Numbered from the stretch's first letter, positions 18,186 to 44,576 are shown. The stretch: 64,000 nt of DNA from the human T2T-CHM13v2.0 reference genome, Homo sapiens (GCF_009914755.1 NC_060932.1), one strand, 5' to 3'. Notes: a model not told the origin generated them from the sequence alone. Translations and numbers: made by a program.

Positions 18186-21100
18186 GCTGCAGGGAAGGCA
18201 TTTTCCTCTGTGGGAGGACACAGGCATCCCTCCTGGGACATGCTGCATTTTTCCCTTCATGAGCTGCCTCTATGCCCCCTTTCAAACCTGACCTTCCTTT
18301 TGGGGCCTTCTTGCCACTTTGGGGTGTCCTGTTGGTGAGAAAGGCACCCTGGGTGCAAGCTAGGGACTTCATGAACACCTGAGCCAGGCACAGGGCTGCT
18401 GGGAAGGCACTTTTTTCCATGGGAGGACACAGGCTCCCCTCCTTGGCCATGTGGATTTTTTTCCTTACAGAGCTGCCTCAACCTCCCCTTTCAAGCCTGA
18501 CATGCTGCGACCTTACTCTTGGGATATTTTTGCCACTTTGCGGTGCCCCTATGGGCAAGATATGCACCCAGAATGCAGGCTAGGAACTCCACAACACCCC
18601 ATGACTGGTGCAAGGGCTGCCAGGAAGACACTTTCATCTGTGGGAGGACACAGGCCTCCTCCTCGGCAGCACAGGTTTTTTTCTTCCAGAGCTGCCTCAA
18701 CCTCCCCTTTCAAGCCTGAAGTGCCGTGACCTTCCCTCTGGGGCATTCCTGCCACTTTGCAGTGCCCCGTGGGTAAGACACATACCCTGGGGGCAAGCCA
18801 GGGGTGTTACCACCACCCTGCACCCGACACAGAGCCTGGCTGGAAGGCTTTTTCATCCATGGGAAGACCCAGGCCCCCTCCTGGGCCTTGCCACATTTTT
18901 CCCTTCCTGAACTGCCTCAACATCCTCTTTGAAGCCTGACCTTCCCTTGGGGGCTCCTTGCCTCTTTGAAGTGACACCTGTGGGCGAGAAATGCATCCTG
19001 GTTGCAAGCCAGGGATGCCATGTCCACCCCGGATGCTGTGCAGGGGCTGCCGGGAAGGCACTTTAGTCTGCAGCAGGACCCAGGACCCACTCTAGGGATG
19101 CACCACTTTCTTCCCTTCCCTAGCTGCCTCAGTGTCCCCTTTGAAGCCTGACTTACCATCCCCTTCCCTTGTGGGCCTTCTTGCTGCTTTGCAGTGCCCC
19201 CGTGGGTGAGACACACACCTTGGGTGCCAGCCAGGGGCATCACGACACACCCCTACACCGTACAGGAGTGCATCCTGGGCCGTGCCCCTTTTTTCCCTTC
19301 CTGAACTGCTCCAAAGTCCCCTTTAAAGCCTGACCATCCATTCGGGGCCCTCTTGCCACTTTTGGGTGCCCCCTGTGGGCAAGACACGAACCCTGTGTGC
19401 AAGCCAGGGATGCCACGACCCCCCCCACAGACCCTGTGCAGGAGGTGCCAGGAAAGCCCAGGCCTCCCTGGGAGGCCTTGTGTTTCCCTCAGCCTGGCTG
19501 CTTTTTTGGCCTGGCTCCCTCAATGTCCCCTTTCAACACTGATGTGCTGTTCCCTTTCCTCGGGGGCCTTCATACCAGTTTGTTGGGGCCTCCCATATGC
19601 AAGGTCACCCTTTGTGCAAGTCAGGGACTCCACGACAGCTACGGGCCCAGCGCAGGGGCTGCTGGCAAGGTGGGGGCCTCCGTAAAAGTCCTTCAGCTTC
19701 CTCCTCAGCCTGGCCACTTTATTTCCCTGGCTGTCTCAACATCCCGTTTCAAGCCTGACTTGCAGTCCCCTCCCCCCAGGGGCCTTCTTCACACTTTGGG
19801 GTGCCCACCGTATGTGAGACATGCACCCAGGATGCAAGCCAGGGATGCCACGACCTCCACAGGTGCCACACAAGGACTGCAGGGAAGGCAATTTATCCAT
19901 AAGATGACCCAGTCCCCCATCTGGGCAAACGCCATTTTTTTCCCTTCCCAAGCTGCCTCAAAGTCCCCTTTCAAGCCTGACTTTCCTCTGGGGAGCTTCT
20001 TCCTGCTTTGCGGTGGCCCTGTGGGTGAGACACACACCCTGGGTGCAAGCTAGGGACTCCATGAACCCCCAGCCTGGTGTAGGGGCTGCCAGGAAGGCAC
20101 TTTCAACCCTGGGAGGACCCAGGCCCCCTCCTCGGCTGTGCCATTTTTTTCCTTCCAAAGCTGCCTCAACCTCCCATTTCATGCCTGATGTGCTGTGGCC
20201 TTACTAATCGGGCATTCTTGCCACTTTAAAGTGCACCCTGTGGGTAATACACCCACCCTGCTTGCAAGCCAGGCACACCACGAGCCCCTCAGAACTCCCA
20301 CAGTGGATGATGGGAAGGCATTTTCGTCCATGGGAGGATCCAGGACCCCTTACTGGGCTGCGCCAATTTTTCCTTTCCCAAGCTGCCTGAACATATACTT
20401 TCCAGCCTGACTTGCTGTCCCCTTCCATTGGGGGACTTTTTGCCACTTTGGGCTGCCTCCCATGGGTGAGACACGCATTCCGGGTGCAAGCAGTGATGCC
20501 ACGACCCTTCTGCACCCTGTGCAGGTGCTGCTGGGATGGCACTTTCGTCCATGAGAGGACCCAGGACCTCCTCCTGGGCCATACCCCTTTCTTCTTTTCT
20601 CAAGCTGCCTCAACATCACCTTTCAAACCTGATGTGCAGTCCCCTTCCCTTAGGGACCTTTTTGCTGCTTTGAGGTGTCACCTGAGGTCAAGAAACACAC
20701 CCTGGGTGCAAGCCAGGGATGCCAAAATCCCCATGGACCCAGTGCAGAGGCTGCTGGGAAGGCACTTTCCTCCCTGGTAGTGCCCAGGCCCCCGTCCTAG
20801 GCTGCGCCAATTTTTTCACTTCAAGAGCTGCCTCAACGTCCGCTTTCAAGCCTGACATTGACTCGGGGGCCTTCTAGCTTATTTGGGGTGCGCCTGTGGG
20901 CGAGACACGAACCCTGGGTGCAAGCTAAGGACTCCATAAATCCACCGGCCCAGTGCAGTGGCTGCCAGGAATGCACATTCATCCACGGGATGACCCAGGC
21001 CCCCCTCCTTGACTATGCCATTTATTATCCTTCCAGAGCTGCCTCAACTTCCCCTTTCAAGCCTGACGTATTGTGGCCTTCCTCCTGGGGCATTCTTGCC

Positions 21101-22583
21101 ACTTTGGGGTGCCCCAATGGGCAAGACATGCACTGTGCGTGCAAGCTAGGGACTCCATGACCTTCCGGGCCCAGCACATGGGGTTCTGGGAAGGCATTTT
21201 CATCCGTGGGAAGACACAGGCCCCCCTCCTAGGCCATGCCATTTTTTTCCTTCCAGAGCTGCCTCAACCTCCCCTTTCAAGCCTGCCACGCTGTGGCCTT
21301 CCTCCTGGGGCCTTCTTGCTGCTTTGCAGTTCCCTGTGGGTGAGACATATACCCTGGGGGCAAGCCAAGGGTGTTAAAACCTACCCACACCATGTGCAGA
21401 GCCTGCCTGGAAGGCATTTTCATCCATGGGAGGACCCAGGCCTCCCTCCTTGGTGACACCACATTTTTCTTTTCCAGAACTGCCTCAATGTCCTCTTTCA
21501 AGCCTGACCTTCCCTTGGGGGCCTTCTTGCCACTTTGGGGTGTCCACCATAGGTGAGACATGCACCCTGAGTGCAATTCAGGGATGCCATGACCCCAGTG
21601 GACCCCGCACAGAGGCTGACGGGAAGGCATTTACATCTGTGGGAGAACCCAGGTCTCAGTATGGGGCCACGCCGATTTTTTCCCTTCCCAAGCTGACTCA
21701 ACGACCCCTTTCAAGCCTGAACTTCCGTTGCAGGCCTTCTTGCTGCCTTATGGTGCCTCCTGTGGCAAGACATGATCCCTGGGTGCAAGCCAGGGACACC
21801 AAGACCACCCTGGATTTACACAGGGGCTGCCAGAAGACATTTTCATCCATGGGAGGACACAGGCCCCCCATCCTGAGCTGTGCCCCTTTTTTTCCTTCCC
21901 ATGTTGCCTCAATGTCCTCTTTCAAGCCTGACTTGCCGTCCCCTTTCTTTGGGGGCCTTTTGGCCACTTTAGTCTGCCTCCCATGGATGAGACACCCACC
22001 CTGGTTGCAAGCCAGGGATGCCACGGCCCCCCCAGACCCTGCTCAGGGGCTGCCAGGAAGGCATTTTAGTCCGTGGCAGGACCCAGGCCCCCCTCTTGTG
22101 CCGCACTACATTCTTTCTTACCCCAGCTGCCCTAATGTCTCCTTTGAAGCCTGACTTGCTGTCCTCTTTTCTTGGGGTCCTTCTTGTCACTTTGCCTGCC
22201 CCCAAGGGTGAGACATGCACCCTGGTTGCAATCCAGGGATGCCATGACACACCCCAACCCCGTGAATGGGCTGGTGGGAAGGCACTTTCATCCATTGAAG
22301 GACCTAAGCCCCTGTCCAGGGCCATGCCAATTTTTTCCCTTCTTGAGCTGCCTCAACATCCCCTTTAAAGCCTGACCTTCCATTGGGGTCCTTCTTGCCA
22401 CTTATAGGTGCCCCCTGTGGGTGAGACATGAACCCTGGGTGCAAGTGAGGGATGCCATGACCCCCACCCCGGACCTTGTGCCGGGGCTGCTGGAAAGGCC
22501 CGGGCCTCCTGGGAGGCTTTCAGTGTCCCCTTTGGCCAGGCTGCTTTTTTCCCCTGACTGCCTCAACATCTCCTTTCAAACCT

Positions 22584-23454
22584 TGTAGGGAAACCCCCTG
22601 AAACTACTGCTACAGAACAAAAGATGAAATGCTCCTGATTATTGTAAATACAAAATTGGATGCAGGATTGTGTAAAGACAATGACAGGTTGTACTGCCAG
22701 AATGAGCCAACAGCACGTGATGTGCTTCCCCCTGCAGAGAGCCTATGAATGGATGTGCAGTCAGGGAGGTTTCACATCACCAAGATTCCTATCCCAGAAA
22801 AGCAGATGTTCATAGCTCTGGGCATGGAATGCAACCCCTGTGGAGAGCCTATAAATGGATGCATGAGGGGCGCCTATTCATATGGATAAGATAGGGCTAT
22901 AAACACCCTCATCTTGCCATGGCTCATCTAGGCCTCTTTAGGGTTAAGACATACTCCCTTCTGAGAATTTCTGGTCTAACCAGGTGTTCGGCATCACGTC
23001 CTGTTTCTATGGATTGTTTGTTACCAGCTTTTGCTGCAACTGTTACTGCTGATTAATATCTTGTTAATCATAGGTTATGGAAAGACTGTATTTCTTTTTT
23101 AAGGCTCCGTTAGAAATTACTGATGCACACACTATATTGTAAATTCTTTTCTCTGTATACTGTAGTTCTGCATACAGATGTTATGTTAAAGAATTACTTC
23201 ATCCCTATGTGACCATCTCACCTCATAATCAAATGACCCAAATCCCTCACTAACCTACTTCTGCCCTCACTAAACTTAATAATAAATGCTGATATATCCA
23301 GTGCTTTGGTGGCATCACGGGACCAGAAGGTGGTGACCCCCGGATGCAGCTTTCACTATCTTGTGTGTGTATATTATTTCTCGACCTGCCAATTCACCTG
23401 GGAACAAAGAAAGAGCCCCTTTGCATTGCAGGATGCTGACCAGATCCCACAATA
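22584..23454 (+). mobile_element. Solo ERVK-class LTR, probably MER11D (HML-7), 871 bp
   Basis: Starts TGTAGGGAAACCCCCTGAAACT and ends CAGATCCCACAATA. TATAAA-like boxes at ~22850 and ~22898, AATAAA at 23281. Degenerate 6-bp TSD (aaacct 22578-22583 / agccct 23455-23460) within the gamma motif ttcaagcctg. LTR nature is clear; the family name is from memory. Confidence 0.78.
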
Positions 23455-26400
23455 AGCCCTGGCATGCTGTCCCCTTTCCCTGGGGTCCTTCATACCAGTT
23501 TATGCGGTCCATTGTATGCGAGAAAGGCACACTTGGTGCAAGCAAGGGATTCCATGACCACTTCGGGCCCTGCCTAGAGGCTGCCAGGAAGGCCCAGGCC
23601 TCCCCCTCAGCCTGGCCACTTTATTTCCCTGGCTGTCTCAACGTCCCGTTTCAAGCCTGATGTAGTGTCCCCTTACACCAGGAGCCTTCTTGCAGATTTG
23701 GGGTGCCCACCATTTGCAAGAAACACACCCTTGGTGCAAGTCTGGGATGCCACTACCTCCGTGGACCCCGCACAGGGGCTTCTGGGAAGGCACTTCTGTC
23801 CATGGGAGGACCCAGGCCCCCATCCCTGCTCGCGCCAATTTTTTCCCTTCCCAAGCTGCCTCCACGTCTCCTTTCAAGCCTGATCTTCCCTTTGAGGCCT
23901 TCTTGCCACTTTGGGGTGCCCTGTGGTTGAGATATGCACCCAAGGTGAAAGCTAGGGCCTCCATAAACCCCCGGGCCCAGTGCAGGGGCTGCCAGGGAGG
24001 CACTTTCATCCACGGGAGGATCAGGATCCCCTCCTTGGCTGTGCCATTTTTTTCACTTCTAGAGCTGCCTCAACCTCCACTTTCCAGCCTGACGTGCCGT
24101 AGTCTTCCTCTTCCAGCATTCTTGCCACGATGGGGTTCCCCCATTGGTGAGACATGCACCCTGGGTGCAAGCTAGGGACTCCACTTACCCCCAGGACTGG
24201 CGCAGAGGTGCTGGGAAGGCACTTTGGTCCATTGGAGGGCCCAAGTACCCCTCCTCGGCCGTGCTGAATTTTTTCCTTCCAGAGCTGCCTCAACCTCCCC
24301 TTTTAAGCCTGACATGTCTTGGCCTTCCTCCTGGGGCATTTTTGCTGCGTTGTGGTGCCCCCATGGGTGAGGCACAGACCCTGGGTGCAAGCTACGGACT
24401 CCACGACATTCCGTGACCAGTGCAAGGGCTGCTGAGAAGGTACTTTCATCCCTGGGAGCACACAGGCCCCCTTTTCAGCCACCAGTTTTTTTTCCTTCCA
24501 GAACTACTTCAACCTCTCCTTTCAAGCCTGACATGCTGTGGCTTTCCTTTTGGGGCATTCTTGCCACTTTGTAGTGCCCCATGGGTGAGACATGTATCCT
24601 GGGGCAAGCCAGGGGCATTACGACACCCCCGCACGCTGCACAGTTCCTGCCAGGAAGGCATTTTCCTCCATGGTAGGACCCAGGCCCCCTCCTGGCCTGT
24701 GCCAATTTTTTCCCTTCCCGAACTGCCTCAACATCATCTTTCAAGCCTGACCTTCCCTTGGGGGCCTTCTTGCCTCTTTGGGCTGCCCCTATGGGTGAGC
24801 CACGCACCCTGGGTGCAAGCCAGGGATGCCACGATCCCCCTGGATCCCATGCAGGGGCTGATGAGAAGAACCAGGCATCAGTGGGAGGCTTTATGCATCC
24901 CCCTTGGCCTGGCTGCTTTATTTCCCTGGCTGCCTCAATGTCCCATTTCAAGCCTGAGGTGGTGTCCCCTTACGCTGGGGGCCTTCTTGAAATTTTGACT
25001 TGCTCCCCATGTGCAAGACCCTCACCCTGGGTGCAAGCCAGGGACTCCACGACCCCTCAGGGCCCAGTGTAGGGGCTGCAGGGAAGGCCTGGGCATCCGT
25101 GGGAGGCCTTCAGCATCCGCTTCAGCCTATATGCTTTTTTACCTGGCTGCCTCAAGGTCCCCATTACAGCCTGATGCCCTGTCTCCTTCCCTTGGGGGAC
25201 TTCTTGCCACTTTGGGGTGCCTCACTTTGCAAGACATGCAGCCTGGGTCAAGCAGGGACTCCATGAACCCCCCAAGGCCTGGCACAGAGGCTGCCAGGAA
25301 GGCCGGGGTCTCCGTAGGAGGCATTCAGCATCACCTTCAGCCTGGCTGCTTAATTTCTCTGGCAGCTTCAACGTTCCTTTTAAAGTCTGACATGCTGTAC
25401 CCTTTGTCTGGGGGCCTTCTTGCCAGCTTCAGGTGCCTCCCGTTTGCCAGACAGGCACCCTTGATGCAAGCCAGGGACTCCATGACCACATGGGGCCTGG
25501 CGTTGGGACTGTGGGAAAGCCCAGGCCTCCATGGAAAGCCTTCAGCATCCCCTTTGGCCTGTCCGATTTATTTATCTGGCTGCCTCAATGTCCCCTTTCA
25601 AGACTGATGTGCTGTCACCTTCCCCCAGGGGCCTTCTTATTGCTTTGTGGTGCTCCCTGTGTGCAAGACATGAACCCTGGGTGCAAACCAGGGACTCCAC
25701 GACCCCTCAGGGCCCTTTGCAAGGGCTGCTGGGTAGGCCCAGATCTCCTTGGGATCACTTCAGCATCCCCTTCAGCCTCGACACTTTTTTCCCTGGCTGT
25801 CTCAATGTCCCCTTTAAAGCCTGACGTCCTGTCCCCTTTTCTTGGGGAACTTCTTGCCACTTTGTGGTGCCTTCCGTGTGTGAGACACACAAACAGGGTT
25901 CAAGACAGGGATTCCACAATCCCCCTTGGTCCAGCACAGAGGCTGCTGGGAAGGCCCGGGCCTCCGTGGGATGACTTCAGCATCCCACCTGGTCTAGTCG
26001 CTTTTTTCCCTGGCTGCCTCAATGTTCCCTTTCAAGCCTGAAGTGCAGTCCCCTTTCCCTGCTGGCCTTCTTGCCAGTTTTTGTGCCCTCCATGTGTGAC
26101 ACAGGCACTCTTGGTGCAAGCCATGGGCTCATGACCACCCCAGGCACGGTGCAAGGGTTGTCGTGAAGGCCCAGGCCTCCTTGGGAGGACTTCAGCTTAC
26201 CCATCGGCCTGGCCGCTTTATTACCCTGGCTGCCTTAATATCCCATTTAAAGCCTGATGTGATGTCCCCTTACCCCGGGGGCCTTCTTGCTGCTTTAGGG
26301 CCCCTAACCATGTGTGAGACACCCACACTGAGTGCAAGCCAGGGACTCCATGAAGCCCCCAGGCCCAGCACAAATGCTGTTGTGAAGGCCTGGGCTTCTC

Positions 26401-29400
26401 TGGGAGGCCTTCAGCTTCCCCCTCGGCCTGGCTGCTTCATTTCCGTGGCTGCTTCAAAGTCCCCTTTCAAGCCTAACTTGCTGTCCCTTTTCTCCCGTGG
26501 CCTTCTTGCCACTTTGGGGTTCCCTTCGTGTGCGAGACACACACCCTGGATGCAAGGCAGGGACTCCACGACCACCCCGGGCCCAGCATAGGGGCTGCTG
26601 GGAACGCCTGGGCCTCCGTGTAAGGCCTTCAGGTTCTCCCATGGCCTGGCTGCTTTATTTCCTTGGCTGCCTCAACATCCCCTTTCAACCCTAATGTGCT
26701 GTCCCCTTTTCCCAGGGGCCTTCTTGAGAGTTTGTGGTGCCCCCCGGTGTGCGAGACACGCACCCTTGGTGCAAGCCAGAGACTCCATGATCACTCCAGA
26801 CCTGGCGCAGGGGCTGCCGAAAAGGCCTAAGCAACTGTGGGAGGCCTTCAGGGTCCCCCTCAGCCTGGCCGTTTCATTTCTCTGGCTGCCCCAATGTCTT
26901 GTTTCAAGCCTGAGGTGCTCTTCCCTTCCCCTGGGGACCTTCTTGCCACTTTGGGGTGCCCACTGTGTGCGAGCCACGCACCCTGGGTGCAAGACAGGGA
27001 CTCCCAACACCCTTCAGGGTGCGGTGCAGGGTCTGCCAGGAATGCCTGAGCCTCTATGGGATGCCTTCAGTGTCCCCTTCGAACTTGCCACATTTTTTCC
27101 CTGGCTGCCTCAACGTCCATTTTCAAGCCTGATGTGCTGTCCTTTTTCCCCGGGGGCCTTCTTGCCAGTTTGTGATGCCACCCCTCTGTGAGGCAGGAAC
27201 GCTTGGTACAAGCCAGGGACTCCACGACCCCATCAGGCTCACCAAAGGGGCTGCCGGGAAGGCCCGGACTTCTTCTGTTGCAGGCCTTCAGCATCCCTTT
27301 CGGCCTCAACGCTTTTTTTCCCTGGCTGCTTCAAGGTCCCCCTTAAAGCCTGACGTCCTTTCTCCTTCTCTTGGGGGCCTTCTTCCACTTTGGGGTGCCC
27401 CCCGTGTGTGAGACACGCACTGTGGATGGGGGCCAGGGATACCACGAACACCCGGGCTGATGCAGAGGCTGCCAGGAAGGCCCGGGAGTCCGTGGGAGGC
27501 CTTCAGCATCCCCCTCAGGCTGGCCACTTTATTTTCCTGGCAGCTTCAAGGTCTCATTTAAAGCCTGACATTCTGTTGCCTTCCCTTGGGGGCCTTCTTG
27601 CTGCTTTGGGATGCCCCTGTGTGTGAGACAAACAACCTGGGTGCAAGGGAGGGACTTTACGAATCCCCCGGGCCTGAAGCAGAGGTTACCAGGAAGGTCT
27701 GGGTGTCCGTGGGAGGCCTTCAGCCTCCCCCTCTGCCTGCCCACTTTATTTCCCTGGCTGCCTTGATGTCCACTTTCAAGTCTGACATGCTGTCCCTGTT
27801 CCCTGGTAGCCTTCTTTCTGCTTTGGGATGCCCCACTGTGTGCAAGACGTGCACTTTTGGTGCAAGGCAGAGACTCCACCATCCCCCCAGACTCCACTCA
27901 GAGGCTGCCAGGAAGGCCCAGGCCTCTGTAAGAGGGCTTCAGCGTCCCCCTTGGCCTGGCCGCTTTTTTTCTCTGGTTGACTCAATGCCCCCTTTCAAGC
28001 CTTATGCACTGTCCCCTTCCCCTGGTGGCCTTGCCTGTTTGGGGTCCCCTTCGTGTGCAAGACATGCACCACTGGTGCAAGCCACGGACTCCACGACCCT
28101 ATCAGACCAGGCTCAGGGGTTGCCAGGAAGGCCCTGGCCTCAGTGGGATGCCTTCAGCATCCCCCTCGGCCTGGTGGCTTTATTTCCCTGGCTGCGTCAA
28201 CATCCTGTTTCAAGCCTGATGTGCTGTCCTCTTCCCACAGGGGCTTTCTTGATGCTTTGGGGTGCCCCATGTGTGTGAGACACATACCCTTGCTGCAAGC
28301 CAGGGACAGCACAAACCCTCCGGGCCCAGCCCAGGGGCTGCCGGGAAGATCTGGGCCTCCGTGGGAGGCCTTCAGGGTCCCCTTTGGCCTCAGAACATTT
28401 TTTCCCTGGGTGCCTCATGGTACCCTTTAAAGCATGACGTCATGTCCCCTTCTTTTAGGGGCCTTCTTGCCACTTTGGGGTGACTCTGTGTGTGAGGCAC
28501 GCACCCTGAGTGCAAGCCAGGGACTCCATCAATGCCACGGGCCTGGCACAGAGGCTGTAGGAAAGGCCGGGGCCTCTGTGGGAGGCCTTCAGCGTCCACC
28601 TTGGGCTGGCTGCTTTATTTCCCTGGCTACCTCAATGTCCCCTTTCAAGCCTGATGTGTTGTCCCCTTCCTCTGGTGGCCTTCTTGCCAGTTTGCTATGT
28701 GCCACCTGAGTGAGACACACACCCTTGTGGCAAGCCAGGGGCTCCACGACCACCCCAGACCATGGGCAAGGGCTGCTGGGAAGGCCTAGGCCTTTGCGGG
28801 ATGAATTCTGCATCCCCCTTGTCCTGGCAGCTTTATTTCACTGGCTGCCTCAATGTCCCCTTTAAAGCTGGACATGCTGTCCCCTTCCCCTGCAGGACTT
28901 CTTGCCACTTTAGTGTACCCCCGTGGGTGAGACACGCATCCTGGGTGCAAGCCAGGGACTCCACGACCACTCCAGGCCTGGCGCAGGGGCTTCCGGGAAG
29001 GCCCAAGTCACTGCTGGGGGCCTTCGGTGTCCACCTGGGCCTGGCCACTCCTTTAACCTAGCTGTCTCAACCTCTCCTTTCAAGCCTGACATAATGTCCC
29101 CTTTCCCTGGGGGCCTTCTTGCCAGTTTGTGGTGCTCTCCGTGTAAGAGACAGGCACTCGTGGTGCAAACCAGGGATGCACCGACCCCCCTGACCCAGCA
29201 CAGGGGCTGCCGGGAAGGCTCGGGCTCCGTGGGACTACTTCAGCATCCCACTTGGCCTGGATGCTTTATTTTCCTGGCTGCCTCAAGGTCCCCTTTCAAC
29301 CCAGACGTCCTGTCTCCATCCCCCAGGGGCCTTCTTGCTGCTTTGGGGTGCCTCCCTTTAGTGAGACATGCACACTGGGTGCAAGCCATGGACTCCACGA

Positions 29401-30339
29401 CCCCTCCGGGCCCGGTGCAGGTGCTGCCTGGAAGGCCCAGGCCTCCGTAGGAGGCTTTCAGTGTCCCTTTTGGCCTGGCCGCTTTTTTTCCCTGGCTGCC
29501 TCAAGGCCTCCTTTAAAACCTGAAGTCCTCTCCTTTTCCCTTGGAGACCTTCTTGCCATTTTGGTATGCCCCTCCCCACCCCGTGTGTGAGACACGCACC
29601 CTGGGTGCAAGCCAGGGACTCCACGACCCCTCTGGGCCCTACGCAGAGGCTGTTGGGAAGGCCCGGGCATCAGTGGGAAGTCTTCAGGGTCCTGCTCGGC
29701 CTGGCCACTTTATTTCCCTGCCTGCCTCCCTGTCCGTTGTCAAGACTGATGTGCTGTCTCCTTTCCTCGGGGGCTTTCTTGCCACTTTGGGATGCCCCTG
29801 TGTGAGAGACATGCAGGCTTAGTGAAAGCGAGAGTCTCCATGACCCTCCTGGGCCTGGCGCAGGGGCTGCTGGGACGGCCCGGTCCTCAATAAGTGGGCT
29901 TCAACATCCCAGTTGGCATGGCTTTTTTCCTCTGGCTGACTCAACGTCCCCTTTCAAGCCTTATGTGCTGTTCCCTTCCCCTGGTGGCTTTGACAGTTTG
30001 TGGTGCCACCCCCTGTGTGCGAGGAAAGCACCCTTGGTGCAGGCCAGGGACTCCACGACCCTCCCGGGCCAGATGCAGGGGCTGCAGGGAAGCCCTGGGT
30101 CTCCGCATGAGGCCTTCAGCGTCCCCCTCGGCTTGGCCGCTTTTTTTACCTGGATGCCTCAACATCCCCTTTCCAGCCAGACGTACTGTCCCTTTCCCCT
30201 GGGAGCCTTCTTGCCACTTTGGGTTGGCAAGGAGACTTGCCCCCTGTGGGTGAGTCTCACACCCTCGGTACAAGCCAGAGACTCCATCATGCATTCAGCT
30301 TCCGCCCATTTTTATGTTAAAAGCAGGGCACTTTGCTTC

Positions 30340-31740
30340 TGCACATCAACGGAATCATTATCATACTCAGATCACTTGGACTGGGGTATGCAGTACTTCA
30401 GCATTGTCTCACCTTTCATATTACTAGAGAAGGCTTTCTCACCATGTTTTGTTCACAGTCTCCACCCGCCAGTTGCCCCTCATTGTTTCTGAGAGCCACA
30501 CATGGATGCCTCGGGAAGAAATTGTTCTGCCTTACAACCAAACCCTGCAGCAAATGTTGAATGCTTTCTATTAGGGTGGTTACCTTGTGCTCATGCACTC
30601 ACTGCCAACGTCCCTCCATTTACCCACCTTTCTCTCAAGGCCACAGTCCTCCCCAAGACCTACACACCAAGGTGGTAGGCATGAGCTTACCAAAGTCGCT
30701 CCTGCATCTTGTGCACACTTTGCAGAGTGGAGCATGGCACAGATGTGCACTCGACAGATGAGGTGGCATTTCTTACCATCTGGGATTGGCCTGCTTCACT
30801 CAAACGCCTCGCCCACCCAGCGACCTCTTCAGGACGTACTCACAAACACAGCGGTGGCGGCTGTAGGAGAGGGCAGTTGTCGTTGGCACAACACACCATC
30901 TTTTATTCTCAGGCACGTGAGGGACAATCTGGAGCACTGCTGGATCACCACAAAGGCCTCTGCGGTGCCAACACTCATGCATCCCAGAAAGGGCAGCATG
31001 GTGTTTTTTAAGGATAGTCCACCATGGCCACAGAGAGGTGCCATGGCCACCCCCAAGGCAACAACCACAGGAAGCCAGAACAGAGGTGCCTGCTCTGTCA
31101 GAGGACCCCACAAATTTCCTCAAAGCCACGAGGCACCAGGTGTGAGTGCAGTGAAGTCATGCCAAATTCCATGCCTCATGCCTCCCAACACACCACCCAC
31201 AAGCGGGGAGGAGAGACGAGGAGCCTCACGAGTAGAAAGAGAAGAACAGACCCATTCATCATGAATTTCCATCCCTTGCTGCTCGCTGCTTAGTACCCGC
31301 CCAGGAGAGCATGACATCATCACATCAATTGTGAAAAGCCCCATAGCGGGGCAGTGGTTGAGTCGGGGTCAGTCCTGGCTAAGCTGATGAGCATAACAGC
31401 CTAGCCAGCCTCACTCTGGGATAGGGACAGCAAACAATTCACAGAAGAGAATGTCTGACGTGCACAGCACAGAGCCAACAGGGGGTTGTTTTGGCTATCC
31501 CGCGCAGCTGCAGCATGGAGCACGTGGGTCAAGGGAGCCCACTCCGCTTTCCCCACCAGGGTGGAAGTTCCAGAGACCTGGGGCACCACCAACAGTTATA
31601 ACACTAGCATGCGTCAGAGCAGGCGCACAGGTCCCAACAGTCAGCTCAAGCTGGAGCAGTGCCTGTTAGCTGGGTTACCAGTATACCACAGCTTCACACC
31701 CATCTAAAGACCCACTCTAATAGCCGGACACCATGTTGAC
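30340..31740 (-). pseudogene. Partial 5' external transcribed spacer of 45S pre-rRNA (about the first 1.7 kb in human numbering), truncated at the gamma satellite
   Basis: Minus-strand matches to recalled human 5'ETS: GGGGCTTTTCACAATTGATGTGATGATGTCATGCTCTCCTGG (~31300-31342; A'/01 site region, human GGGGCTCTTCGTGATCGATGTGGTGACGTCGTGCTCTCCCGGG), GGGGTCCTCTGAC (~31098-31110), CGAGGCGTTTGAGTG (~30797-30811) and GGTGAGAAAGCCTTCTCTAG (~30424-30443; A0 site region). Confidence 0.88.
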
Positions 31741-31900
31741 AACAACCTGGTGGCCCAAAATGCCACCCCGGAGTGAAAGATATACCTCGCCTGGAGGCAG
31801 GTTGTCAAGTCACCGACCACGCCACTGGCCTATAAATGCGCGACCTGGACATCTGTTCCCAAAAATGCCATAATGGCAGTCAGACACGGAACACTCAGGG
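31722..31900 (-). promoter_or_regulatory. RNA polymerase I rDNA gene-promoter homologue (core plus upstream control element), +1 at ~31740
   Basis: Minus strand reads ...GGCATTTTTGGGAACAGATGTCC...GGCGTGGTCGGTGAC...GAGGTATATCTTTCACTCCGGGGTGGCATTTTGGGCCACCAGGTTGTT|GTCAACATGGTGTCC, versus recalled human GAGGTATATCTTTCGCTCCGAGTCGGCATTTTGGGCCGCCGGGTTATT|GCTGACACGCTGTCC. Confidence 0.92.
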
Positions 31901-31904
31901 CCCT

Positions 31905-31915
31905 CTGGTCGACCC
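31905..31915 (-). terminator. T0 promoter-proximal Sal box (TTF1 site), perfect GGGTCGACCAG
   Basis: ctggtcgaccc on the plus strand is GGGTCGACCAG on the minus strand, at about -165 to -175 from +1, the canonical T0 position. Confidence 0.9.
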
Positions 31916-32373: not shown

Positions 32374-32385
32374 CTGGTCGACCAG
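32374..32385 (-). terminator. Spacer-terminator-type Sal box (Tsp homologue)
   Basis: ctggtcgaccag (palindromic; TGGTCGACCAG is 10/11 to the Sal box), ~640 bp upstream of +1, in a context matching the recalled human GCCGGTCGACCAG region. Confidence 0.78.
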
Positions 32386-32559: not shown

Positions 32560-32700
32560 ATGGTTTTTTTCCCTTGGCAGCTGCCACTGGAGCTCCGGAA
32601 GCCAAGAGAACTATATAAAAGCAGCCGCCAGATGGAGCCAGACAGCCGTCGACAACCGTCGCGAACATCAGCAAAGCAGATCCGGATGGCGTGGCAGCCT
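32560..32700 (-). promoter_or_regulatory. rDNA spacer-promoter region homologue with CTCF motif
   Basis: Minus strand CGGCTGTCTGGCTCCATCTGGCGGCTGCTTTTATATAGTTCTCTTGGCTTCCGGAGCTCCAGTGGCAGCTGCC matches the recalled human IGS about 0.8-0.9 kb upstream of +1. CTCF-type motif gccgccagatggag at 32624-32637. Confidence 0.72.
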
Positions 32701-32974
32701 GTGACCGCAATACCCAAACCGTGAGTCGAAGTCTTCTTGAGGCCGAAAACGCAGCCCCTCCACGCCAACTTCACAGAAACCGTTCCCCAAAAGTGTCTCT
32801 GCATAGACTGCGACAGAATCAAAAGACAACCAATGGCGTGTGGGTGTTTGAAGATGCATCTCAGAAGGAGAAAGAAGAAACAGGACTTGGTCGTGGGTCG
32901 GTTAGGGCACAGGGAAAAACAGAGTAAGGAGAGTCTTCCAGAACCCAAACAAGTCTCCAGTCTTCCAGAATCCA

Positions 32975-33303
32975 ACAGAGGAAGGGAGGGAGAAAGGGAA
33001 TAGAGAAAAGGGACAGACCGAGGAAGGGAAGTAGGAAGGGAAGTGAGCAGCGAGGGAGGGAGGGAGTAAGGAAGTGGGAAAGAGAGACAGAATATTAAAA
33101 ATCTAGAGAAATAAATATAAAGAAAGAGAGAAAGAGACATAGAAAGGGAAGAAAGATGAAAGAGATAAAGAATAAGGAAAGAATTGAAGGAAAGCAGGGA
33201 GGAAAAAACAGAGCAAGGAAAGAAAAAAGAAAAAGAAAAAAGGACAGAAAGAAAGGAAGAAAGAAAGAGACAGAAATAAAAAAGAAGAGAAAAGAACAAA
33301 GAA
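32975..33303 (+). repeat. Polypurine (GA-rich) low-complexity tract typical of rDNA IGS
   Basis: ~330 bp almost entirely G/A (CT-rich on the rDNA sense strand). Confidence 0.9.
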
Positions 33304-33585
33304 GGCAGGGCATGGTGACTCACATGTATAATCCCAACACTTTGCAGGGTTATGTAGGAGAATCACCTGAGCCCAGCTCTGGCAACATAGCGAGACTCTG
33401 TCTCTACTTAAAGAAAAAAAGAAAAGAAAAAAAAGTTGGCAGGACGCGATGACATGTAGTCACAGCTCCTCAAGAGGCTGAGATAAGAGCTTCTCTTGGA
33501 CTCGGGAGGTCAAGGCTGCCATGAGCCATGGTCAGGCCAATGCACTGCAGCCCGGGTGACAGAGCGAGACTCCACCTCAAAAACT
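33304..33585 (+). mobile_element. Old Alu (AluJ-like)
   Basis: Dimeric Alu with J-type motifs (caacatagcgagac, ggaggtcaaggctgc); highly diverged. Confidence 0.82.
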
Positions 33586-33684
33586 TGAACAAATGAAGGC
33601 TGTGAGTCCCGCAAGAAAAAGATATAAAGGAAACAAAGAAGGAAGTTGAGTTCTGAAAGGAAAACTATTTTTAAAAGAAACAAT

Positions 33685-33975
33685 GGCCAGGCCCGGTGGC
33701 TCTCGACTGTAATCCCAGCAATGTGGGAGACCAAGGCAAGCGGATCACCAGGTCAGGTGTTCAAGACCAGCCTGACATATATGGTAAAACCGTGTCTCTA
33801 ATAAAAATACAAAAATTAGCTGGGAGTGGTGGTGTGTGCCTGTAGTCCCAGCTAACCTGGGGGGTGCGAGGCAGAAGAATCACTTGAACCCAGGAGGCGG
33901 AGGTTGCTGTGAGTCAAGATTGTGCAACCGCACTCCAGCCTGGGTGACAGGGTGAGACTCCATCTCAAAAAAAAG
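33685..33975 (+). mobile_element. AluS-family element, tail continuing as a GA-rich tract to ~34260
   Basis: ggccaggcccggtggctc ... aaaaatacaaaaattagc ... gagactccatctcaaaa. Confidence 0.9.
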
Positions 33976-34954
33976 AGAAAAAGGAAAAAGAAGGGGGAAG
34001 AGAGAAATATGGAAAGAGATACTAAAAAAACAGAAAGAAAGGGAAAGAAAGGGAAAATAAAAAAAAGAAAGAAGAAAAAGAAAGAAAGACAGAAGAAAGA
34101 AAGAAAAAGAAAGAAAGAAGGAAAAAGAAGGAAGGAAGGAGAAAGAAAGAAAGAGAAAGAGAGACAAAGACAGAGTCAGAACTGGAGAAAGATATTAGGA
34201 AGACAGAAATGAAAGGAGAAAGATAGAAAGATTAAAAAAAAGAAAAAGAAAACAAAACTCTAAAAGGATAGTAAGGCCCAGGGAGGGGCTATGGTGCACT
34301 TTCCACTTTACCAACATGCGGGCCAGGGAAAGAAAAATATTAAACATAATACATAACGGTAAAAAGTGACTATGGCGGCCCAGCCAGGGTGGTTGAGTTT
34401 CCCTAGGGAGGGAGGGAGAGAGGAAGAGGGAAGTTGCTCGAGTTGAAGGAGAGAATCCGTGGCTAGGGGGAGGGGACAGAAAGAGGAGGGGAAAGGGACA
34501 GAGGCACAGTAGTATACACTGGAATGTTTTTTAGCCTGGGGTGGGTGGGGGGACACGAAGGGCAATTCAGGAAATAAGCTGACTCCAGAAATGACACTTA
34601 ATTCATAGTGCTGCCATCGCTGCCTTGAAAGGTGTGCAGTGCATGTTTGTTCCTCCACACTCATTCGGTTATTTCTAGGAAATGCCATTTAGTCCCACAT
34701 GCTTGAAATCCACCTGCTTTAACAACATCTGGGGAGAATCAGAAAAGTCCCCACTAACGAAAAGGCCTAGAGTTGAGCTGCCATCTGTAAAACCCAGGCA
34801 GAAGAGTCCACGCGGGTCAAACACATGAAGAAAGAAAAGGAACCAACTGAAGAAAAAAAAAAATCACCAACATGGCCCAGCCGGAATCTCCAGAAGTTTT
34901 CTGCTCAATGAGGGAGTGGGGGAACGGATGGATGGAGGTAGGGCGAACCTCCGA

Positions 34955-34982
34955 GGGTGGGGGCGGGGGCGGGGGTGGGGGG
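34955..34982 (+). other. G-quadruplex-forming / GC-box tract
   Basis: gggtgggggcgggggcgggggtgggggg: five runs of 3 or more G with 1-nt loops. Confidence 0.75.
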
Positions 34983-35293
34983 AGCGGAAAGAAGCCACAC
35001 TTGCTCCTGACCATGGGCAGGCAGCCAGAGCATCCTGTGCACCGCCTAGATTTCAAAACCAGTGACGGCTAGAAGACGCCCAATGACAACAGATGGAAGG
35101 GTCAGCCTGGCACCCTCCCAGAAGCTCCCAGCAACTAATTGACCAGAACTCTGCAGGGGAAGAAGCACTGTGACGGGAAAACATGGAGAAACACACGCAC
35201 CTAAGCACGTACGCATGCATGCACCATATCCCACATATAGATGAGTTTATACCGTGACAGTGAGAGAGCCCACCTCTAGAAACGAAAGAAGGA

Positions 35294-35600
35294 GGCTGGG
35301 CGCCGCAGCCCACGCCTGTCACCCCAGCACTTTGGGAGGCCGAGGCAGGCAGATCACCTGAGGTCAGGAGTTCCAAACCAGCTTGGTCAACATGGTGAAA
35401 CCCTGTCTTTAAGAAAAATACAAAAATTAGCTGGGCTTGGTGCTGGGCTCCTGTAATCCCAGTTCTTTGGGAGGAAGAGGCACTAGAATCACTTGAACTC
35501 CAAAGGTGGAAGTTGCAGTGAGCCGAGATCTCACCACTGCACTCCAGCCTGGGCAACAGAAAAAGACTCCATCTAAAAAAAAAAGAAAAGAAAAGAAAAG
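35294..35600 (+). mobile_element. AluSx/Sq-like element
   Basis: Full dimer containing gatcacctgaggtcaggagtt, with an A-rich tail. Confidence 0.9.
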
Positions 35601-35602
35601 TC

Positions 35603-35817
35603 AATCGCTTCTGTCTTTAGATGAATGCACTCACGCATAGACAGATAGCTTTAAGCTTTGTAAACTTTTGTAATTTTGAGTCGGTCTGGCGATATTTCCA
35701 AGCCTTCTCCCCGTAAGTGGTCACAGAAATGAAAACTCCCTCCTTTTTTAGTTCATTTGCATCTCATTATCAGGCCACGAGAATAAGCAGCCCACCCTCT
35801 GTTTGGTCCGGGAACAA
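35603..35817 (+). mobile_element. 3' fragment of a MER4-group (ERV1) LTR
   Basis: Ends gagaataagcagcccaccctctgtttggtccgggaaca, resembling the recalled MER4 LTR 3' terminus. Confidence 0.62.
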
Positions 35818-35820
35818 ATA

Positions 35821-36110
35821 CACTCCAGCCAGGAGACATAGGGAGAGCTTGTCTCAGAAAAGAAACAAGAAAACAATAAAAAAAAAGAAGGAAAATAATT
35901 AGCCTGGCATTGTGCTGTGTTGCGGGTCGCGCCCGTGACTATAGACCCAGCAACTCGGGAGACTGATGTAGAGGAGAATCAATTTAAGCCCAGCAGTTCA
36001 AGGTCGCAGTGAGCTATGATCTTACCTCTGCACTCCAGCCTAGGCAACACAGGGACACCCCATCTCTAAAATATACATGAAAGAATGAATAAATGAATGC
36101 AAATAAAATG
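35821..36110 (+). mobile_element. Diverged AluJ-like element (partial)
   Basis: aattagcctggc ... gttcaaggtcgcagtgagctatgatc ... ctgcactccagcctaggcaacacag, then an A-rich tail. Confidence 0.75.
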
Positions 36111-36537
36111 CAAGGAGGTGGAAGAGCATGGGAAGGCTCTACTCTTTCCTAAAGACCAGAGCAGAAAAACAGGACCATCCATTTGAGACATAGGCGATTC
36201 CAAATCACAGTGGAGGCTGTGAGGATTTTGGAGCAAGGCCTTGCCGTTATCTGCAGATTACCAGCTTTCTTTCGAGCGACAGAGCTCTCTCAGCTAGCCT
36301 CTGGCTGTTAGTAGAAACCAAATGCCCAATCGTGGGGCCTGGAAGTTACCATGTGAGCTGAGCCACTCCTCACACACATAAGTGGGTGTGCACGGCAGCA
36401 CTCTAGTGTGACATGGAAGTGCAGTGGACCTGATCAAGTCCGAACAGATCCTGAAGCACAAGTAAGTTCCAGGAGAAAGAAGCCCAAATGCCCATGGTCC
36501 CCAGTCAAGAAATGAGCTGACTTAAGAAATTACACAT

Positions 36538-36940
36538 AGCTGGGCACAGTGCCTCACGCCTATAATTTCAGCACTTTGGTAGGCTGAGACGGGTGGATCA
36601 CTTGGGGTCAGGAGTTCGAGACCAGCCCAGCAACCACAGTGAAACCCTGCCTCTATGAAAAATACAAAAATTAGCCAAGGGTGGTGGAATGTGCCAATAG
36701 TCCCAGCTACTCAGAGGTTGAGGAAGGAAAATCGCTTGAACCTGGGTGGTGTAGGTTGCAGTAAGCGACGAGCAGTGTGCTCCAGCCTGGGTAACACTTC
36801 AAAACTCTGTCTCAAAACAAACAAAAATTACAGTAAATTAAAAAAAAAGAAAGTACACGTAAAAATTACACATAGCTGGGCACAGTGGCTTACATCTGTA
36901 ATCTCAGCACTTTGGGAGGCTGAGAAGGGTGAGTCACTTT
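36538..36940 (+). mobile_element. AluS element (36538-~36850) followed by a ~65-bp Alu 5' fragment
   Basis: Both Alu starts are preceded by the same flank: aaattacacata|gctgggcacagtg. Confidence 0.82.
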
Positions 36941-37056
36941 GTGGTATCATTGCCATTACTGCCTCCACTACTGCCTTGAAAGGACAGAGGCATATGTTTA
37001 TGTCACTTTGTGTTTTTTTTTCTTTTTTCCTGGAAACTCACTTATATATTTATTCA

Positions 37057-37690
<634 letters not shown>

Positions 37691-38461
37691 TATTTATTTT
37701 TTTTAACTGATCAAAGAACCATCAGACCCAGTCATCAGGGTGGCAATTCCCTGGGCAACAAGGGAAGGAGGAACTTGGAGGTGTGGGAGGGGGTTGGGCA
37801 CGGTGCAGAAGACATAGTTGCCCTGGGCTGTGCACAGGTGCCATGAGCTTTCTTCCTCCTTGAGGCCTCAGGTTTCAGAGTAACAGTGGCCTCTTAGTGA
37901 CGCCTGACATATGCCAATGAGACTGTCAGCCAGGAATGAATTGGGATCACCCAGAGGGGGAGAGGGCAGGGGAAGGATGGAGGCCCCCACAGCACAGTGG
38001 GTCGCTGCACCCTCCCAGGTGGTTCCCACAACTAATCGACCAGGGCCCCTGGAAGACACAGCCTAAGTCCTCACCCATTTGTCATCTGGAAATTCCATCC
38101 AGAGACCGACTGAAAATTCTCTCAGTCAAGGTCCAAACCTAAAAGAATCAATGACACACCCAACAGGACTAAGACAACTTTTAAAAGAATCATTTCTGTG
38201 TTTTGGGTGCATCTGTGTATTTATTTCTGTACAACAAAATTATTTATTTTAAACTTTACAATTTTTTTACTTCTTACATGTATAGTCCCATGATAGACAG
38301 ACCAGAAGACTCGTCAGCTCAGAGTCCATGAGGCCAGAAGCTGACATCCTCAATTTCTATTTAGAATAAATTTAAACAAGCCAGCCAAACACCCTGCCAT
38401 AAAATTCCTGGAAGGACTAGTGATTAAAAAAAGGAAAAAACAAAAACAAAAACAAAACAAT

Positions 38462-38600
38462 GCTGTCAGGAGCAGTGGCTCACACCTGTCATCCCTGTAC
38501 TTTGGGAGCCTGAGGGCAGCATTGATCCCAGGCAATTGAGACCAGCCTTGGCAACATGGTGAAACCTCATCTCTAGAAAATTACAAAAATTAGCTGGTTT
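38462..38600 (+). mobile_element. Alu left-arm/FLAM-like monomer
   Basis: gcagtggctcacacctgtcatccc ... ggcaacatggtgaaacc ... aaaaattagctgg, then the similarity stops. Confidence 0.72.
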
Positions 38601-38749
38601 CATAATCTGGACTCAAAATTAATAAATAGATTGAAATTTAGAATTTTAAAAAAGTCTTAAATTCTGTATTCTGTTTTTTTTTTTTTTTTTTGCTTCCTAC
38701 CCTGAGTTGGACATAAATATATCTGTTGTCTGTCTGTCTGTCCATCTGT

Positions 38750-39003
38750 TTGTGACAGGGTCTCACTCCATCTGCCACCTAGGCTTGAGTGCAGTGCTAC
38801 CATCACGGCTCACTGCAGCCTCAATCACCCCAGGGTTAGGTGATTCTCCCACTTCAGCCTTCTGAGTAGCTGTGACCACAGGCAAGCACCTCAGGCTTTG
38901 GCTCTGTTGTCCAAAGCTGGTTTGAGCTCCCGGGCTCAAGCGATCCTACTGCCTCGGCCTCCCAAAGTGTTGGGTTTGCCAGCGTGAGCCACCACACCTG
39001 GCC
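38750..39003 (-). mobile_element. AluJ-like element
   Basis: gacagggtctcactc ... ggctcactgcagcctc ... ctcccgggctcaagcgatcct ... gtgagccaccacacctggcc. Confidence 0.82.
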
Positions 39004-39574
39004 TGACTTAATACATCTAGTCGCACTACATCCTAACCACATGTCTTTGAAGAACTCGATTCAAGAGAGAGTCAGCAAGAGAGGTTCAGCATTCTATCCC
39101 TAAAGCAGTGAGGTTGGTGATGGCAGAGTTTTCCGTGCTTCTGTGGTTTTAGGTGTCCAAGCATAGAGGATAGATTTCAAATGTTTCCGGAGAGGTGCGA
39201 GCCACAGTCATTCATGGCATCTGAGTTCGGGTTGGGGTTTCTGACAGTGCCTTAAGGGCCAGGATCTGCTAAGGCCCGTGTTCTAGGGTGGGGACGTTGG
39301 AATCCAAGGTAGAGGGAGCAATCAGTCCACACTGAGCTCCTGCCCTAGGCCCCACCATGCAGACCAAATCAGAAGGAACAGTCCCTTGTCCTCATGCCAC
39401 ATCCATCCACTGAACTTGAGATCGGATTTGTTTTCCAAACATGAGGTGACTCTTGGTTTGAAATGTATGACAAGGGGCCTGGCTTTCCTGAGTTGGCAGG
39501 ATAAAGAAGTCATTCTGTGGCATAGAATGAGATGTGCCTTGAATCTAAAATCTCCAGTTAAAACCAATGATGGT

Positions 39575-40360
<786 letters not shown>

Positions 40361-40879
40361 ATGAATGTATATAAAAAGAAAAATGCAAGGAAATAGCGGA
40401 GCACGAGAAGGCTCCACTCATTACAAAAGACCAGAGCAGAAAAATAGGGTCATCAGGTTGAGACACAGGCCATTTTGAATCTGTTGTCACCATGCCCAGG
40501 TTTCTGTGCCTCCCGTCTGTCATCACCGATCTCGTCAAGTACAATTGCTGGGTCATGACTACACAGAGATCTTTCAGTCTACCAAATGTGTCCGTACTTT
40601 CACTAGCCTGGTTGGGAGAATAAAAAGCACATTTAGCAAAGTACTCATTGTACGTTCATTGGTCTCCCATGTCTCTCATGAAACCAATCAAATTCATAGT
40701 CTGTTTTTTTTTTCCAGCCCTCAACTGTCCACAATATACCAAAATAAACGAACAGTGAATACATTTTTTGCAACAAGGAGGAAAAACAACAAAGCAAAAG
40801 TCTCAGAGGCTTGTGATACACAGGGGGATACAGAATGAGGAGACTCTTCCAGAATCCACACAAAGACAGACAGATGGAG

Positions 40880-43542: not shown

Positions 43543-44130
<588 letters not shown>

Positions 44131-44545: not shown

Positions 44546-44576
<31 letters not shown>

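What the first reader, a model, noticed from the sequence alone, without database searches (positions are those of the whole stretch)
30288..31915. Well-preserved Pol I promoter and perfect T0 Sal box aimed into the gamma-satellite array
Seen: the core keeps GAGGTATATCTTTC, GGCATTTTGGGCC and G at -7 (31747) and -16 (31756). T0 is a perfect GGGTCGACCAG with its CpG intact, although the neighbouring 5'ETS has lost most CpGs. The +1..+15 initiator matches recalled human at only 10/15. The 5'ETS stops after ~1.4 kb and fuses to gamma satellite, and I noticed no Sal box downstream. Known: G-7 and G-16 are critical for mammalian Pol I promoters, and TTF1 bound at T0 recruits chromatin remodellers such as NoRC. 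Inference (speculative): an orphan UBF/SL1/TTF1 landing pad that could drive Pol I read-through satellite RNA or tether this pericentromere to nucleoli.
Basis: partly seen in the sequence, partly recalled or inferred. Interest (0 to 1): 0.72.

Follow-up and report, generated by a model that had tools for sequence, protein, structure and literature searches.

The report
Ancient rDNA promoter fossil beside satellite
A 13-kb piece of ribosomal-gene spacer and promoter is fused to gamma-satellite DNA on chromosome 8 and has sister copies on chromosomes 12, 21 and Y; its promoter core has decayed as much as a dead control, so it is likely a silent fossil, likely about 40 million years old, though three short predicted protein-binding sites upstream remain nearly intact.

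Summary
The motifs are real: start site 31740 (minus strand), G-7, G-16, a perfect Sal box at 31905-31915, and no Sal box downstream. The promoter is one part of an old composite: chr2-like unique DNA, the 28S/spacer fragment found at the end of the acrocentric distal junction, rDNA spacer, promoter, about 1.45 kb of 5'ETS, then gamma satellite. The same 5'ETS/satellite join recurs on chr12q, chr21q and twice on Y (77-79% identical).

The promoter is not specially preserved. The core matches live rDNA at 80-84%, against 85% for a dead 28S fragment in the same insertion. The two named motifs are CpG-free and intact in 4 of 5 dead copies, and chr8 has the worst initiator of the four satellite-linked copies. 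The perfect T0 is an inferred ancestral state: live human T0 reads TG there, and the sister copies changed it three different ways (chance of survival about 0.05-0.11).

One hint remains. Chr8 alone keeps the CTCF site, Tsp and T0 almost untouched (joint P 0.008-0.022, chosen after the fact; 0.06-0.14 over all five elements). Verdict: a dead rDNA duplicon. Pol I read-through is unlikely; a leftover CTCF/TTF1 boundary is possible.

The parts
13507..30290 (-). Gamma-satellite array, ~217-220 bp monomers, one orientation, with two non-satellite insertions
   Evidence: TRF period 217; 71 profile hits, all on one strand
30300..31740 (-). Truncated 5'ETS, +1 to about +1450, fused to gamma satellite; same join in chr12q, chr21q and both Y copies
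   Evidence: 62-65% to live rDNA, 77-84% to sister copies
31727..31785 (-). Decayed Pol I core promoter (-45..+14); +1 = 31740, G-7 = 31747, G-16 = 31756; 14 bp of rDNA +15..+28 absent
31846..31895 (-). Decayed upstream control element (-156..-107), overlapping the Rfam pRNA hit 31788-31876
   Evidence: 38 of 50 identical; RF01518 57.1 bits
31905..31915 (-). T0 Sal box, perfect consensus with CpG; inferred ancestral state
   Evidence: live rDNA and chr15p TG, chr12q TG, chrY CA, chr21q CC
32374..32383 (-). Tsp Sal box (spacer terminator), identical to live rDNA; broken in the chr12q, chr21q, Y and chr15p copies
   Evidence: Tsp as described in PMC5765358
32435..32585 (-). Spacer-promoter homologue (-850..-700), decayed; partly deleted in the sister copies
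   Evidence: 74% to rDNA over -900..-700; window 32474-32678 missing in L002-L004
32621..32639 (+). Homologue of the rDNA CTCF boundary motif (rDNA -904..-886 in L006 numbering); 18 of 19 identical, with a 16-bp exact run that includes a CpG
   Evidence: taken as the -896..-876 site of PMC5765358, small offset put down to reference differences (inference)
32700..39518 (-). rDNA spacer homology: -7.1 to -4.4 kb (39518-37047), an Alu-rich mosaic of spacer duplicates (37000-34900), then -3.6 kb to -1 kb
40090..43848 (-). Block colinear with the rDNA-proximal end of the acrocentric distal junction (77-78%): Alu, 28S 3' fragment (about 43480-42945), diverged 3'ETS, decayed terminator at 42407-42397
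   Evidence: Rfam LSU hit 43260-43382
43858..47600 (.). Duplicon from euchromatic chr2 (G000:C2:38,702,661-38,706,906), 10-11% diverged in non-repeat DNA; also in the chr12p, 12q, 21q and Y copies

Best explanation
This is a fragment of rDNA spacer, promoter and 5'ETS inside a multi-chromosome pericentromeric duplication, and it is likely silent, likely methylated in the germ line, and decaying like its flanks. Shown: the composite order (chr2-like DNA, distal-junction-like 28S/spacer piece, spacer, promoter, 5'ETS, gamma satellite) sits in monomeric alpha satellite. Four other loci share the 5'ETS/satellite join. Promoter divergence equals that of a dead control. Inferred history: a copy of the outer edge of an ancestral rDNA array (junction end plus first promoter) broke at about +1.45 kb, joined gamma satellite, and was copied between pericentromeres about 35-45 million years ago (10-11% divergence; calibration recalled). 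The promoter looks good against live rDNA because the live lineage is constrained there, because the surviving motifs lack CpG, and because T0 kept its ancestral CpG, which has a chance of about 1 in 10 to 1 in 20.
For: Sister copies at 77-79% with the same join. Dead 28S control 85% (88% non-CpG) vs core 80-84% (85-91%). Chr8-private changes: core 7 of 54 vs flank 182 of 1250, P=0.47. Across the four satellite-linked copies: core 15 observed/17.2 expected, P=0.31; UCE 12/12.0; -200..+20 61/67.1, P=0.20. Against 28S-calibrated rates, chr8 UCE P=0.97-0.99 and core P=0.90-0.95. Both named motifs are intact in 4 of 5 dead copies aligned, including chr15p, which has lost G-7. CpG o/e is 0.32-0.59 vs 1.01 in rDNA. 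Gamma satellite is reported densely methylated (10.1101/2021.07.12.452052, passage). Degraded rDNA copies cluster near centromeres (PMC5381670, passages).
Against: -45..-1 alone is quieter than expected: 6 vs 11.6 across four copies, P=0.031 (non-CpG P=0.070); two 5'ETS windows score as low or lower. On chr8 alone it is 2 of 40, P=0.059. CTCF, Tsp and T0 together on chr8 give P=0.008-0.022. Inferred ancestral CpGs kept: 6 of 12 in -200..+20 vs 21 of 88 elsewhere, P=0.063. The A at -34, -11 and -8 is shared with the independent chr15p copy, so it may be an old rDNA state rather than damage. No methylation, ChIP or RNA data could be examined.
Confidence: 0.8

Rival explanations
1. The Pol I promoter is dead, but the upstream module (CTCF site, Tsp, T0) is still bound by CTCF and/or TTF1. 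Binding would shield these CpGs from methylation and could mark a chromatin boundary next to the gamma array.
For: Chr8 alone keeps all three sites: 1 change vs 3.1-3.4 expected, 0 vs 1.6-1.7, and 0 vs 1.7-1.8; joint P=0.008-0.022. The CTCF run ties for the longest exact match (16 bp) in 2.4 kb. Its one difference is shared with chr15p and so is probably old. CpG o/e is 0.52 and 0.59 in these stretches vs 0.32-0.34 beside them. In live rDNA this is the single ChIP-supported CTCF site (PMC5765358, passage).
Against: The three sites were chosen after seeing the data; over all five elements P=0.06-0.14, and about three independent dead lineages were looked at. Another 16-bp run with two CpGs lies at -385..-370, with no function known to me. 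The dead 28S/3'ETS stretch also has o/e 0.46. Sister copies deleted or mutated these sites. TTF1 depletion changed no non-rDNA gene expression in mouse cells (10.1101/2024.02.11.579707, passage).
Confidence: 0.15
2. One reading: a working orphan Pol I promoter that loads UBF/SL1 and reads through 1.45 kb of 5'ETS into about 17 kb of gamma satellite, or tethers this pericentromere to nucleoli.
For: G-7, G-16, both core motifs and T0 are present, with T0 one base nearer +1 than in rDNA; no Sal box downstream. -45..-1 is slightly under-mutated. Some differences from live rDNA may be ancestral working states. Pol I promoters tolerate poor sequence homology (PMC5765358, passage).
Against: Chr8 has the most damaged initiator of the four satellite-linked copies (10 of 15 vs 11-13), lacks +15..+28 and has a 76% UCE. 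Core CpGs kept are 1 of 6. Off-rDNA Pol I ChIP peaks were judged artefacts (PMC3130253, passage; built on hg18). Nucleolar association of NORs depended on rDNA transcription plus DJ sequence (PMC10097779, abstract and passages).
Confidence: 0.04
3. On anatomy only: the 11.2 kb from 28S end to start site is a fossil of a short ancestral spacer of an ordinary rDNA unit, not a copy of the array's outer junction.
For: The order 28S end, 3'ETS-like DNA, one Sal-like box, spacer, promoter is colinear with a unit. Chr8 holds spacer -7.1 to -4.4 kb that the modern junction lacks.
Against: The 28S piece starts at the same Alu/non-rDNA join and carries the same internal insertion and decayed terminator in the distal junction, chr15p and all five dispersed copies aligned. 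The modern junction has a similar 28S-end-to-start spacing of about 9 kb. Primate units including marmoset are 37.5-42.9 kb (PMC6281188, passage).
Confidence: 0.2

Closest known systems
Degraded centromere-associated rDNA copies (Robicheau et al. 2017, PMC5381670; passages seen)
   Same: Decayed rDNA-unit sequence beside a centromere, outside the NORs
   Different: Older (62-76% to rDNA outside the core), lacks 18S, 5.8S and most of 28S, and is fused to gamma satellite. The terms 'chromosome 8', 'chr8', 'chromosome 12', 'gamma' and 'promoter' occur 0 times in that main text; that paper writes 'HSA' plus a number, which I did not search, and its figures and supplements were not seen.
Human 47S promoter module: CTCF site, spacer promoter, Tsp, T0, UCE, core (PMC5765358, PMC12326227, PMC6281188; passages seen)
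   Same: All six elements are present in order and spacing
   Different: UCE 76%, core 80% with a 14-bp loss, CpG-depleted, no rRNA cassette or terminators downstream; T0 matches the consensus better than live human T0
Acrocentric distal junction, rDNA-proximal end, and its dead copy at chr15p 14.80 Mb
   Same: Same Alu-28S-3'ETS block followed within about 10 kb by a promoter
   Different: 77-81% diverged copy; carries further spacer (-7.1 to -4.4 kb); flanked by chr2-derived DNA rather than DJ
Gamma-satellite arrays GSAT/GSATII at 8q11, 8p11 and 12p11 (PMC2588610; passages seen)
   Same: 217-bp GC-rich arrays in pericentromeric monomeric alpha satellite
   Different: Here the array begins at an rDNA 5'ETS breakpoint shared by chr8, 12q, 21q and Y; 'rDNA' and 'ribosomal' occur 0 times in that main text

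Membership tests
Functional human 47S Pol I promoter | Core element -45..+18 intact | tested here: not met
   47 of 59 aligned bases identical, +15..+28 absent, 5 private changes at +2..+10
Functional human 47S Pol I promoter | G at -7 and -16 (importance recalled, source not retrieved) | tested here: met
   joint chance of survival 0.76-0.78
Functional human 47S Pol I promoter | UCE -156..-107 conserved | tested here: not met
   38 of 50; 12 changes vs 7.7-8.4 expected if dead
Functional human 47S Pol I promoter | T0 and Tsp Sal boxes and upstream CTCF motif | tested here: met
   0, 0 and 1 changes; sequence only
Functional human 47S Pol I promoter | CpG-rich, germ-line unmethylated signature | tested here: not met
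   o/e 0.59 at the promoter and 0.32 in 5'ETS vs 1.01 in rDNA; an indirect measure
Functional human 47S Pol I promoter | rRNA cassette and T1-T10 terminators downstream | tested here: not met
   Gamma satellite from 30290; no Sal 8-mer within 1 mismatch down to 13500
Functional human 47S Pol I promoter | UBF/SL1/Pol I occupancy and initiation at +1 | not testable with these tools
   No ChIP or RNA data available
Dispersed rDNA pseudogene (orphon) | Colinear homology to the rDNA unit, outside a NOR | tested here: met
Dispersed rDNA pseudogene (orphon) | Neutral decay across functional elements | tested here: met
   UCE, core and -200..+20 are not below flank or 28S rates; the three short sites are inconclusive
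Pericentromeric interchromosomal duplication | Mosaic with a euchromatic donor, copied to several pericentromeres | tested here: met
   chr2 donor; copies on chr8, 12p, 12q, 21q and Y twice
Pericentromeric interchromosomal duplication | Formal segmental-duplication cut-off of at least 90% identity (recalled) | tested here: not met
   77-85% over long alignments: an ancient duplication below the usual cut-off

The most novel reading that the evidence does not exclude
Chr8 is the only dispersed rDNA copy that keeps the whole upstream boundary module (CTCF site, Tsp, T0). CTCF and TTF1 have stayed bound there for some 40 million years, turning an rDNA insulator into a pericentromeric boundary at the head of a gamma-satellite array: a natural non-nucleolar TTF1 site in the human genome.
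Probability: 0.15. Interest if true: 0.65.

Novelty: new member of a known kind. Interest (0 to 1): 0.3.

Why it matters
As a fossil it is still useful. It suggests that the simian T0 was once a perfect Sal box and that live human T0 later lost its CpG. It suggests that the rDNA-proximal end of the distal junction predates an approximately 40-million-year-old dispersal. It shows that gamma arrays on chr8q, 12q, 21q and Y share one rDNA breakpoint. Because the copies are 77-85% identical, short reads should map uniquely, so existing CTCF, TTF1, UBF and PRO-seq data could test factor binding at rDNA promoters outside nucleoli, with sister copies that lack the sites as built-in controls. If the boundary reading held, it would be a co-opted rDNA insulator.

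Tried and rejected
Gamma satellite derived from rDNA: a profile of 25 monomers found nothing in the rDNA pieces held, the DJ end or the chr2 donor (best E 7.5); rDNA from about +4.2 to +12.2 kb was not held, so it is untested there. T0 as a sign of selection: rejected, P 0.05-0.08 on the whole path and 10 of 90 CpG-centred 8-mers survive on the chr8 branch. Counting the decayed box at 42407 as a chr8 loss (the '2 of 3' figure): dropped, since all seven dead copies aligned share it. The T0 row used a window off by one base and is not used. Reading -34, -11 and -8 as chr8 damage: dropped, since chr15p shares them. Rfam SRP and miRNA hits below threshold are Alu matches (my reading). The chr20 5'ETS copy (L047) holds no promoter in the 3.5 kb fetched. 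Four papers looked up by id were not held, so the roles of G-7/G-16, linker-scan data, CTCF binding to gamma satellite and the methylation sensitivity of TTF1 are recalled or untested. Earlier scan findings were not available.

Full report
Observation. On the minus strand the stretch aligns to the genome's own live rDNA promoter at 72% over 1.08 kb (42 matches, 40 of 232 candidates scored), and Rfam finds pRNA at 31788-31876 and a 28S piece at 43260-43382. The alignment puts +1 at 31740, G-7 at 31747 and G-16 at 31756. The Sal 11-mer at 31915-31905 has no mismatch. 5'ETS homology ends near +1.45 kb, and a gamma array of 71 profile hits on one strand runs from 30290 to 13507 with no Sal 8-mer within one mismatch.

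Anatomy. The promoter is one part of a 34-kb composite set in monomeric alpha satellite of one orientation, with no CENP-B box (motif recalled). On the minus strand the order is as follows. 47600-43858 matches euchromatic chr2:38.70 Mb. 43848-40090 is colinear at 77-78% with the rDNA-proximal end of the acrocentric distal junction, including an Alu, a 28S 3' fragment and a decayed terminator. 39518-37047 matches spacer -7.1 to -4.4 kb. A mosaic of Alus and spacer duplicates follows, then spacer -3.6 kb through the promoter and 5'ETS, then gamma satellite.

Copies. The same 5'ETS/satellite join occurs on chr12q (38.10 Mb), chr21q (12.42 Mb) and as an inverted pair on Y (18.47 and 19.24 Mb), 77-79% identical to chr8; the Y copies carry an extra insertion just before the join. 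A chr12p copy (34.09 Mb) joins gamma satellite earlier and lacks the promoter. A younger dead copy of junction end plus promoter lies at chr15p 14.80 Mb. A core-motif pattern has 230 genome matches, 226 forward and 4 reverse (only 100 listed). This fits 219 array units (PMC10245113, passage), five partial units and six dispersed promoters; that split is my inference from the counts. In trees chr8 is sister to a 12q/21q/Y clade (97-100% support), and the junction and chr15p pieces lie outside all dispersed copies. Non-repeat DNA differs by 10.3-11.2% between chr8 and either chr12p or the chr2 donor (1,522 sites), which on recalled calibrations means roughly 35-45 million years.

Is the promoter preserved? 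Comparing with live rDNA is biased, because half the path is under selection and CpG-free words decay slowly. I used three controls. First, the dead 28S piece in the same insertion is 85% identical to live 28S (88% non-CpG); the core is 84% for -45..-1 and 80% for -45..+20, and the UCE 76%. Second, chr8-private changes are 7 of 54 in the core against 182 of 1250 in flanks (P=0.47), five of them at +2 to +10. Across the four satellite-linked copies with context-matched rates, the core shows 15 changes for 17.2 expected, the UCE 12 for 12.0, and -200..+20 61 for 67.1. Third, with 28S-calibrated rates chr8 has 12 UCE changes for 7.7-8.4 expected and 12 core changes for 8.9-9.6. G-7 and G-16 survive together with P about 0.77. 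All four satellite-linked copies lack +15..+28, which overlaps the core defined as -45..+18 (PMC6281188, passage).

Against my reading. -45..-1 alone shows 6 changes for 11.6 expected (P=0.031; non-CpG 0.070), though two 5'ETS windows are as low or lower. The A at -34, -11 and -8 is shared with the independent chr15p copy and may be an old working state. Ancestral CpGs are kept 6 of 12 times in -200..+20 and 21 of 88 elsewhere (P=0.063).

T0. Live human T0 has TG where chr8 has CG; chr12q and chr15p have TG, Y has CA and chr21q has CC. TG and CA are the two deamination products of CG, so the orphan ancestor most likely had the perfect box (inference) and the three sister lineages each changed it. 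Chr8 keeps 23 of 90 inferred ancestral CpGs and 10 of 90 whole CpG-centred 8-mers. T0 alone is therefore not surprising.

Chr8 also keeps Tsp (32383-32374, no change) and the CTCF motif (32639-32621, 18 of 19, tied for the longest exact run in 2.4 kb). The sister copies broke Tsp and deleted the CTCF region. These are the ChIP-defined boundary elements of live rDNA (PMC5765358, passages). Single-site P values are 0.05-0.09. The three together give 0.008-0.022, but all five elements give 0.06-0.14; the subset is post hoc and about three lineages were examined. This is a hint, not a result.

Mechanism. Most likely (0.80): a copy of the outer edge of an ancestral rDNA array was broken in the 5'ETS, joined to gamma satellite, spread between pericentromeres, and has decayed under methylation since. 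The structure, copies and rates are shown; history, age and silence are inferred. Next (0.15): residual CTCF/TTF1 binding with local protection from methylation. Least (0.04): Pol I read-through. A ChIP-seq study judged off-rDNA Pol I peaks to be artefacts (PMC3130253, passage).

Comparison with what is known. Degraded rDNA near centromeres is described (PMC5381670), and gamma arrays at 8q11 and 12p11 are catalogued (PMC2588610, PMC8125562); I saw passages only. Searches listed no paper whose title, abstract start or passages read describe this rDNA/gamma composite. The library lacks most subscription papers, I opened no supplements, and masked-region tables such as Table S1 of PMC10245113 could list the locus. 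I also read passages of 10.64898/2025.12.22.696095, PMC13041921 (marmoset arrays lack the DJ), PMC10097779 (conserved DJ blocks in New World monkeys), PMC12326227, 10.1101/2024.02.11.579707 and 10.1101/2021.07.12.452052. It fails membership as a working 47S promoter and meets it as a dispersed rDNA pseudogene in an ancient duplicon.

Verdict. New member of a known kind; interest 0.3. The speculative Pol I function is not supported. The shared rDNA/gamma breakpoint, the ancestral T0 state and the intact CTCF-Tsp-T0 trio are worth one look in existing data.

Noticed in passing
L006:2279-2289 (live rDNA, -176..-166): Live human T0 differs from the Sal consensus at the CpG (TG). The chr15p dead copy already has TG, while the older chr8 family points to CG, which brackets the change in time.
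   Followed up: partly
L031:972-4900 (chr21 distal junction end) vs window 43848-40090: The last kilobases of the distal junction hold an old 28S/3'ETS relic that is more diverged from the dispersed copies than they are from each other; its 3'ETS part has no clear match in the modern spacer.
   Followed up: partly
L046 (G000:C15:14,801,001-14,809,500) and L042: A younger dead copy of junction end, promoter and at least 2 kb of 5'ETS on chr15p, 86% to DJ and 80% to rDNA; G-7 lost.
   Followed up: partly
G000:C12:37.998 and 34.153 Mb; C24:19.161 and 18.556 Mb: Further partial copies of the spacer segment (window 39800-37700) at 78-81%, not fetched.
   Followed up: no
G000:C13:18.137-18.140 Mb; C8:43.82-43.85 Mb; C18:11.465 Mb; C1:12.61/12.65 Mb: Gamma-satellite matches at places where my searches showed no linked rDNA promoter.
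   Followed up: no
window 17135-18171 and 22583-23487: Two ~1-kb non-satellite insertions in the gamma array; they look like solo LTRs (recalled resemblance, family not determined).
   Followed up: no
window 32121-32106 (rDNA -385..-370) and 31823-31809 (-83..-69): Exact 16- and 15-bp matches to rDNA, each keeping two CpGs, outside the elements tested.
   Followed up: no
window 1-13500 and 47663-64000: Old monomeric alpha satellite (73-75% to a window probe, weak ~340-bp period), same orientation on both sides of the 34-kb composite, no CENP-B box.
   Followed up: partly
G000:C8:94,894,065-94,894,467 and C20:26,212,501-26,213,628: Isolated 5'ETS-like fragments; the chr20 one is 87% to live rDNA and has no promoter in the stretch fetched.
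   Followed up: partly
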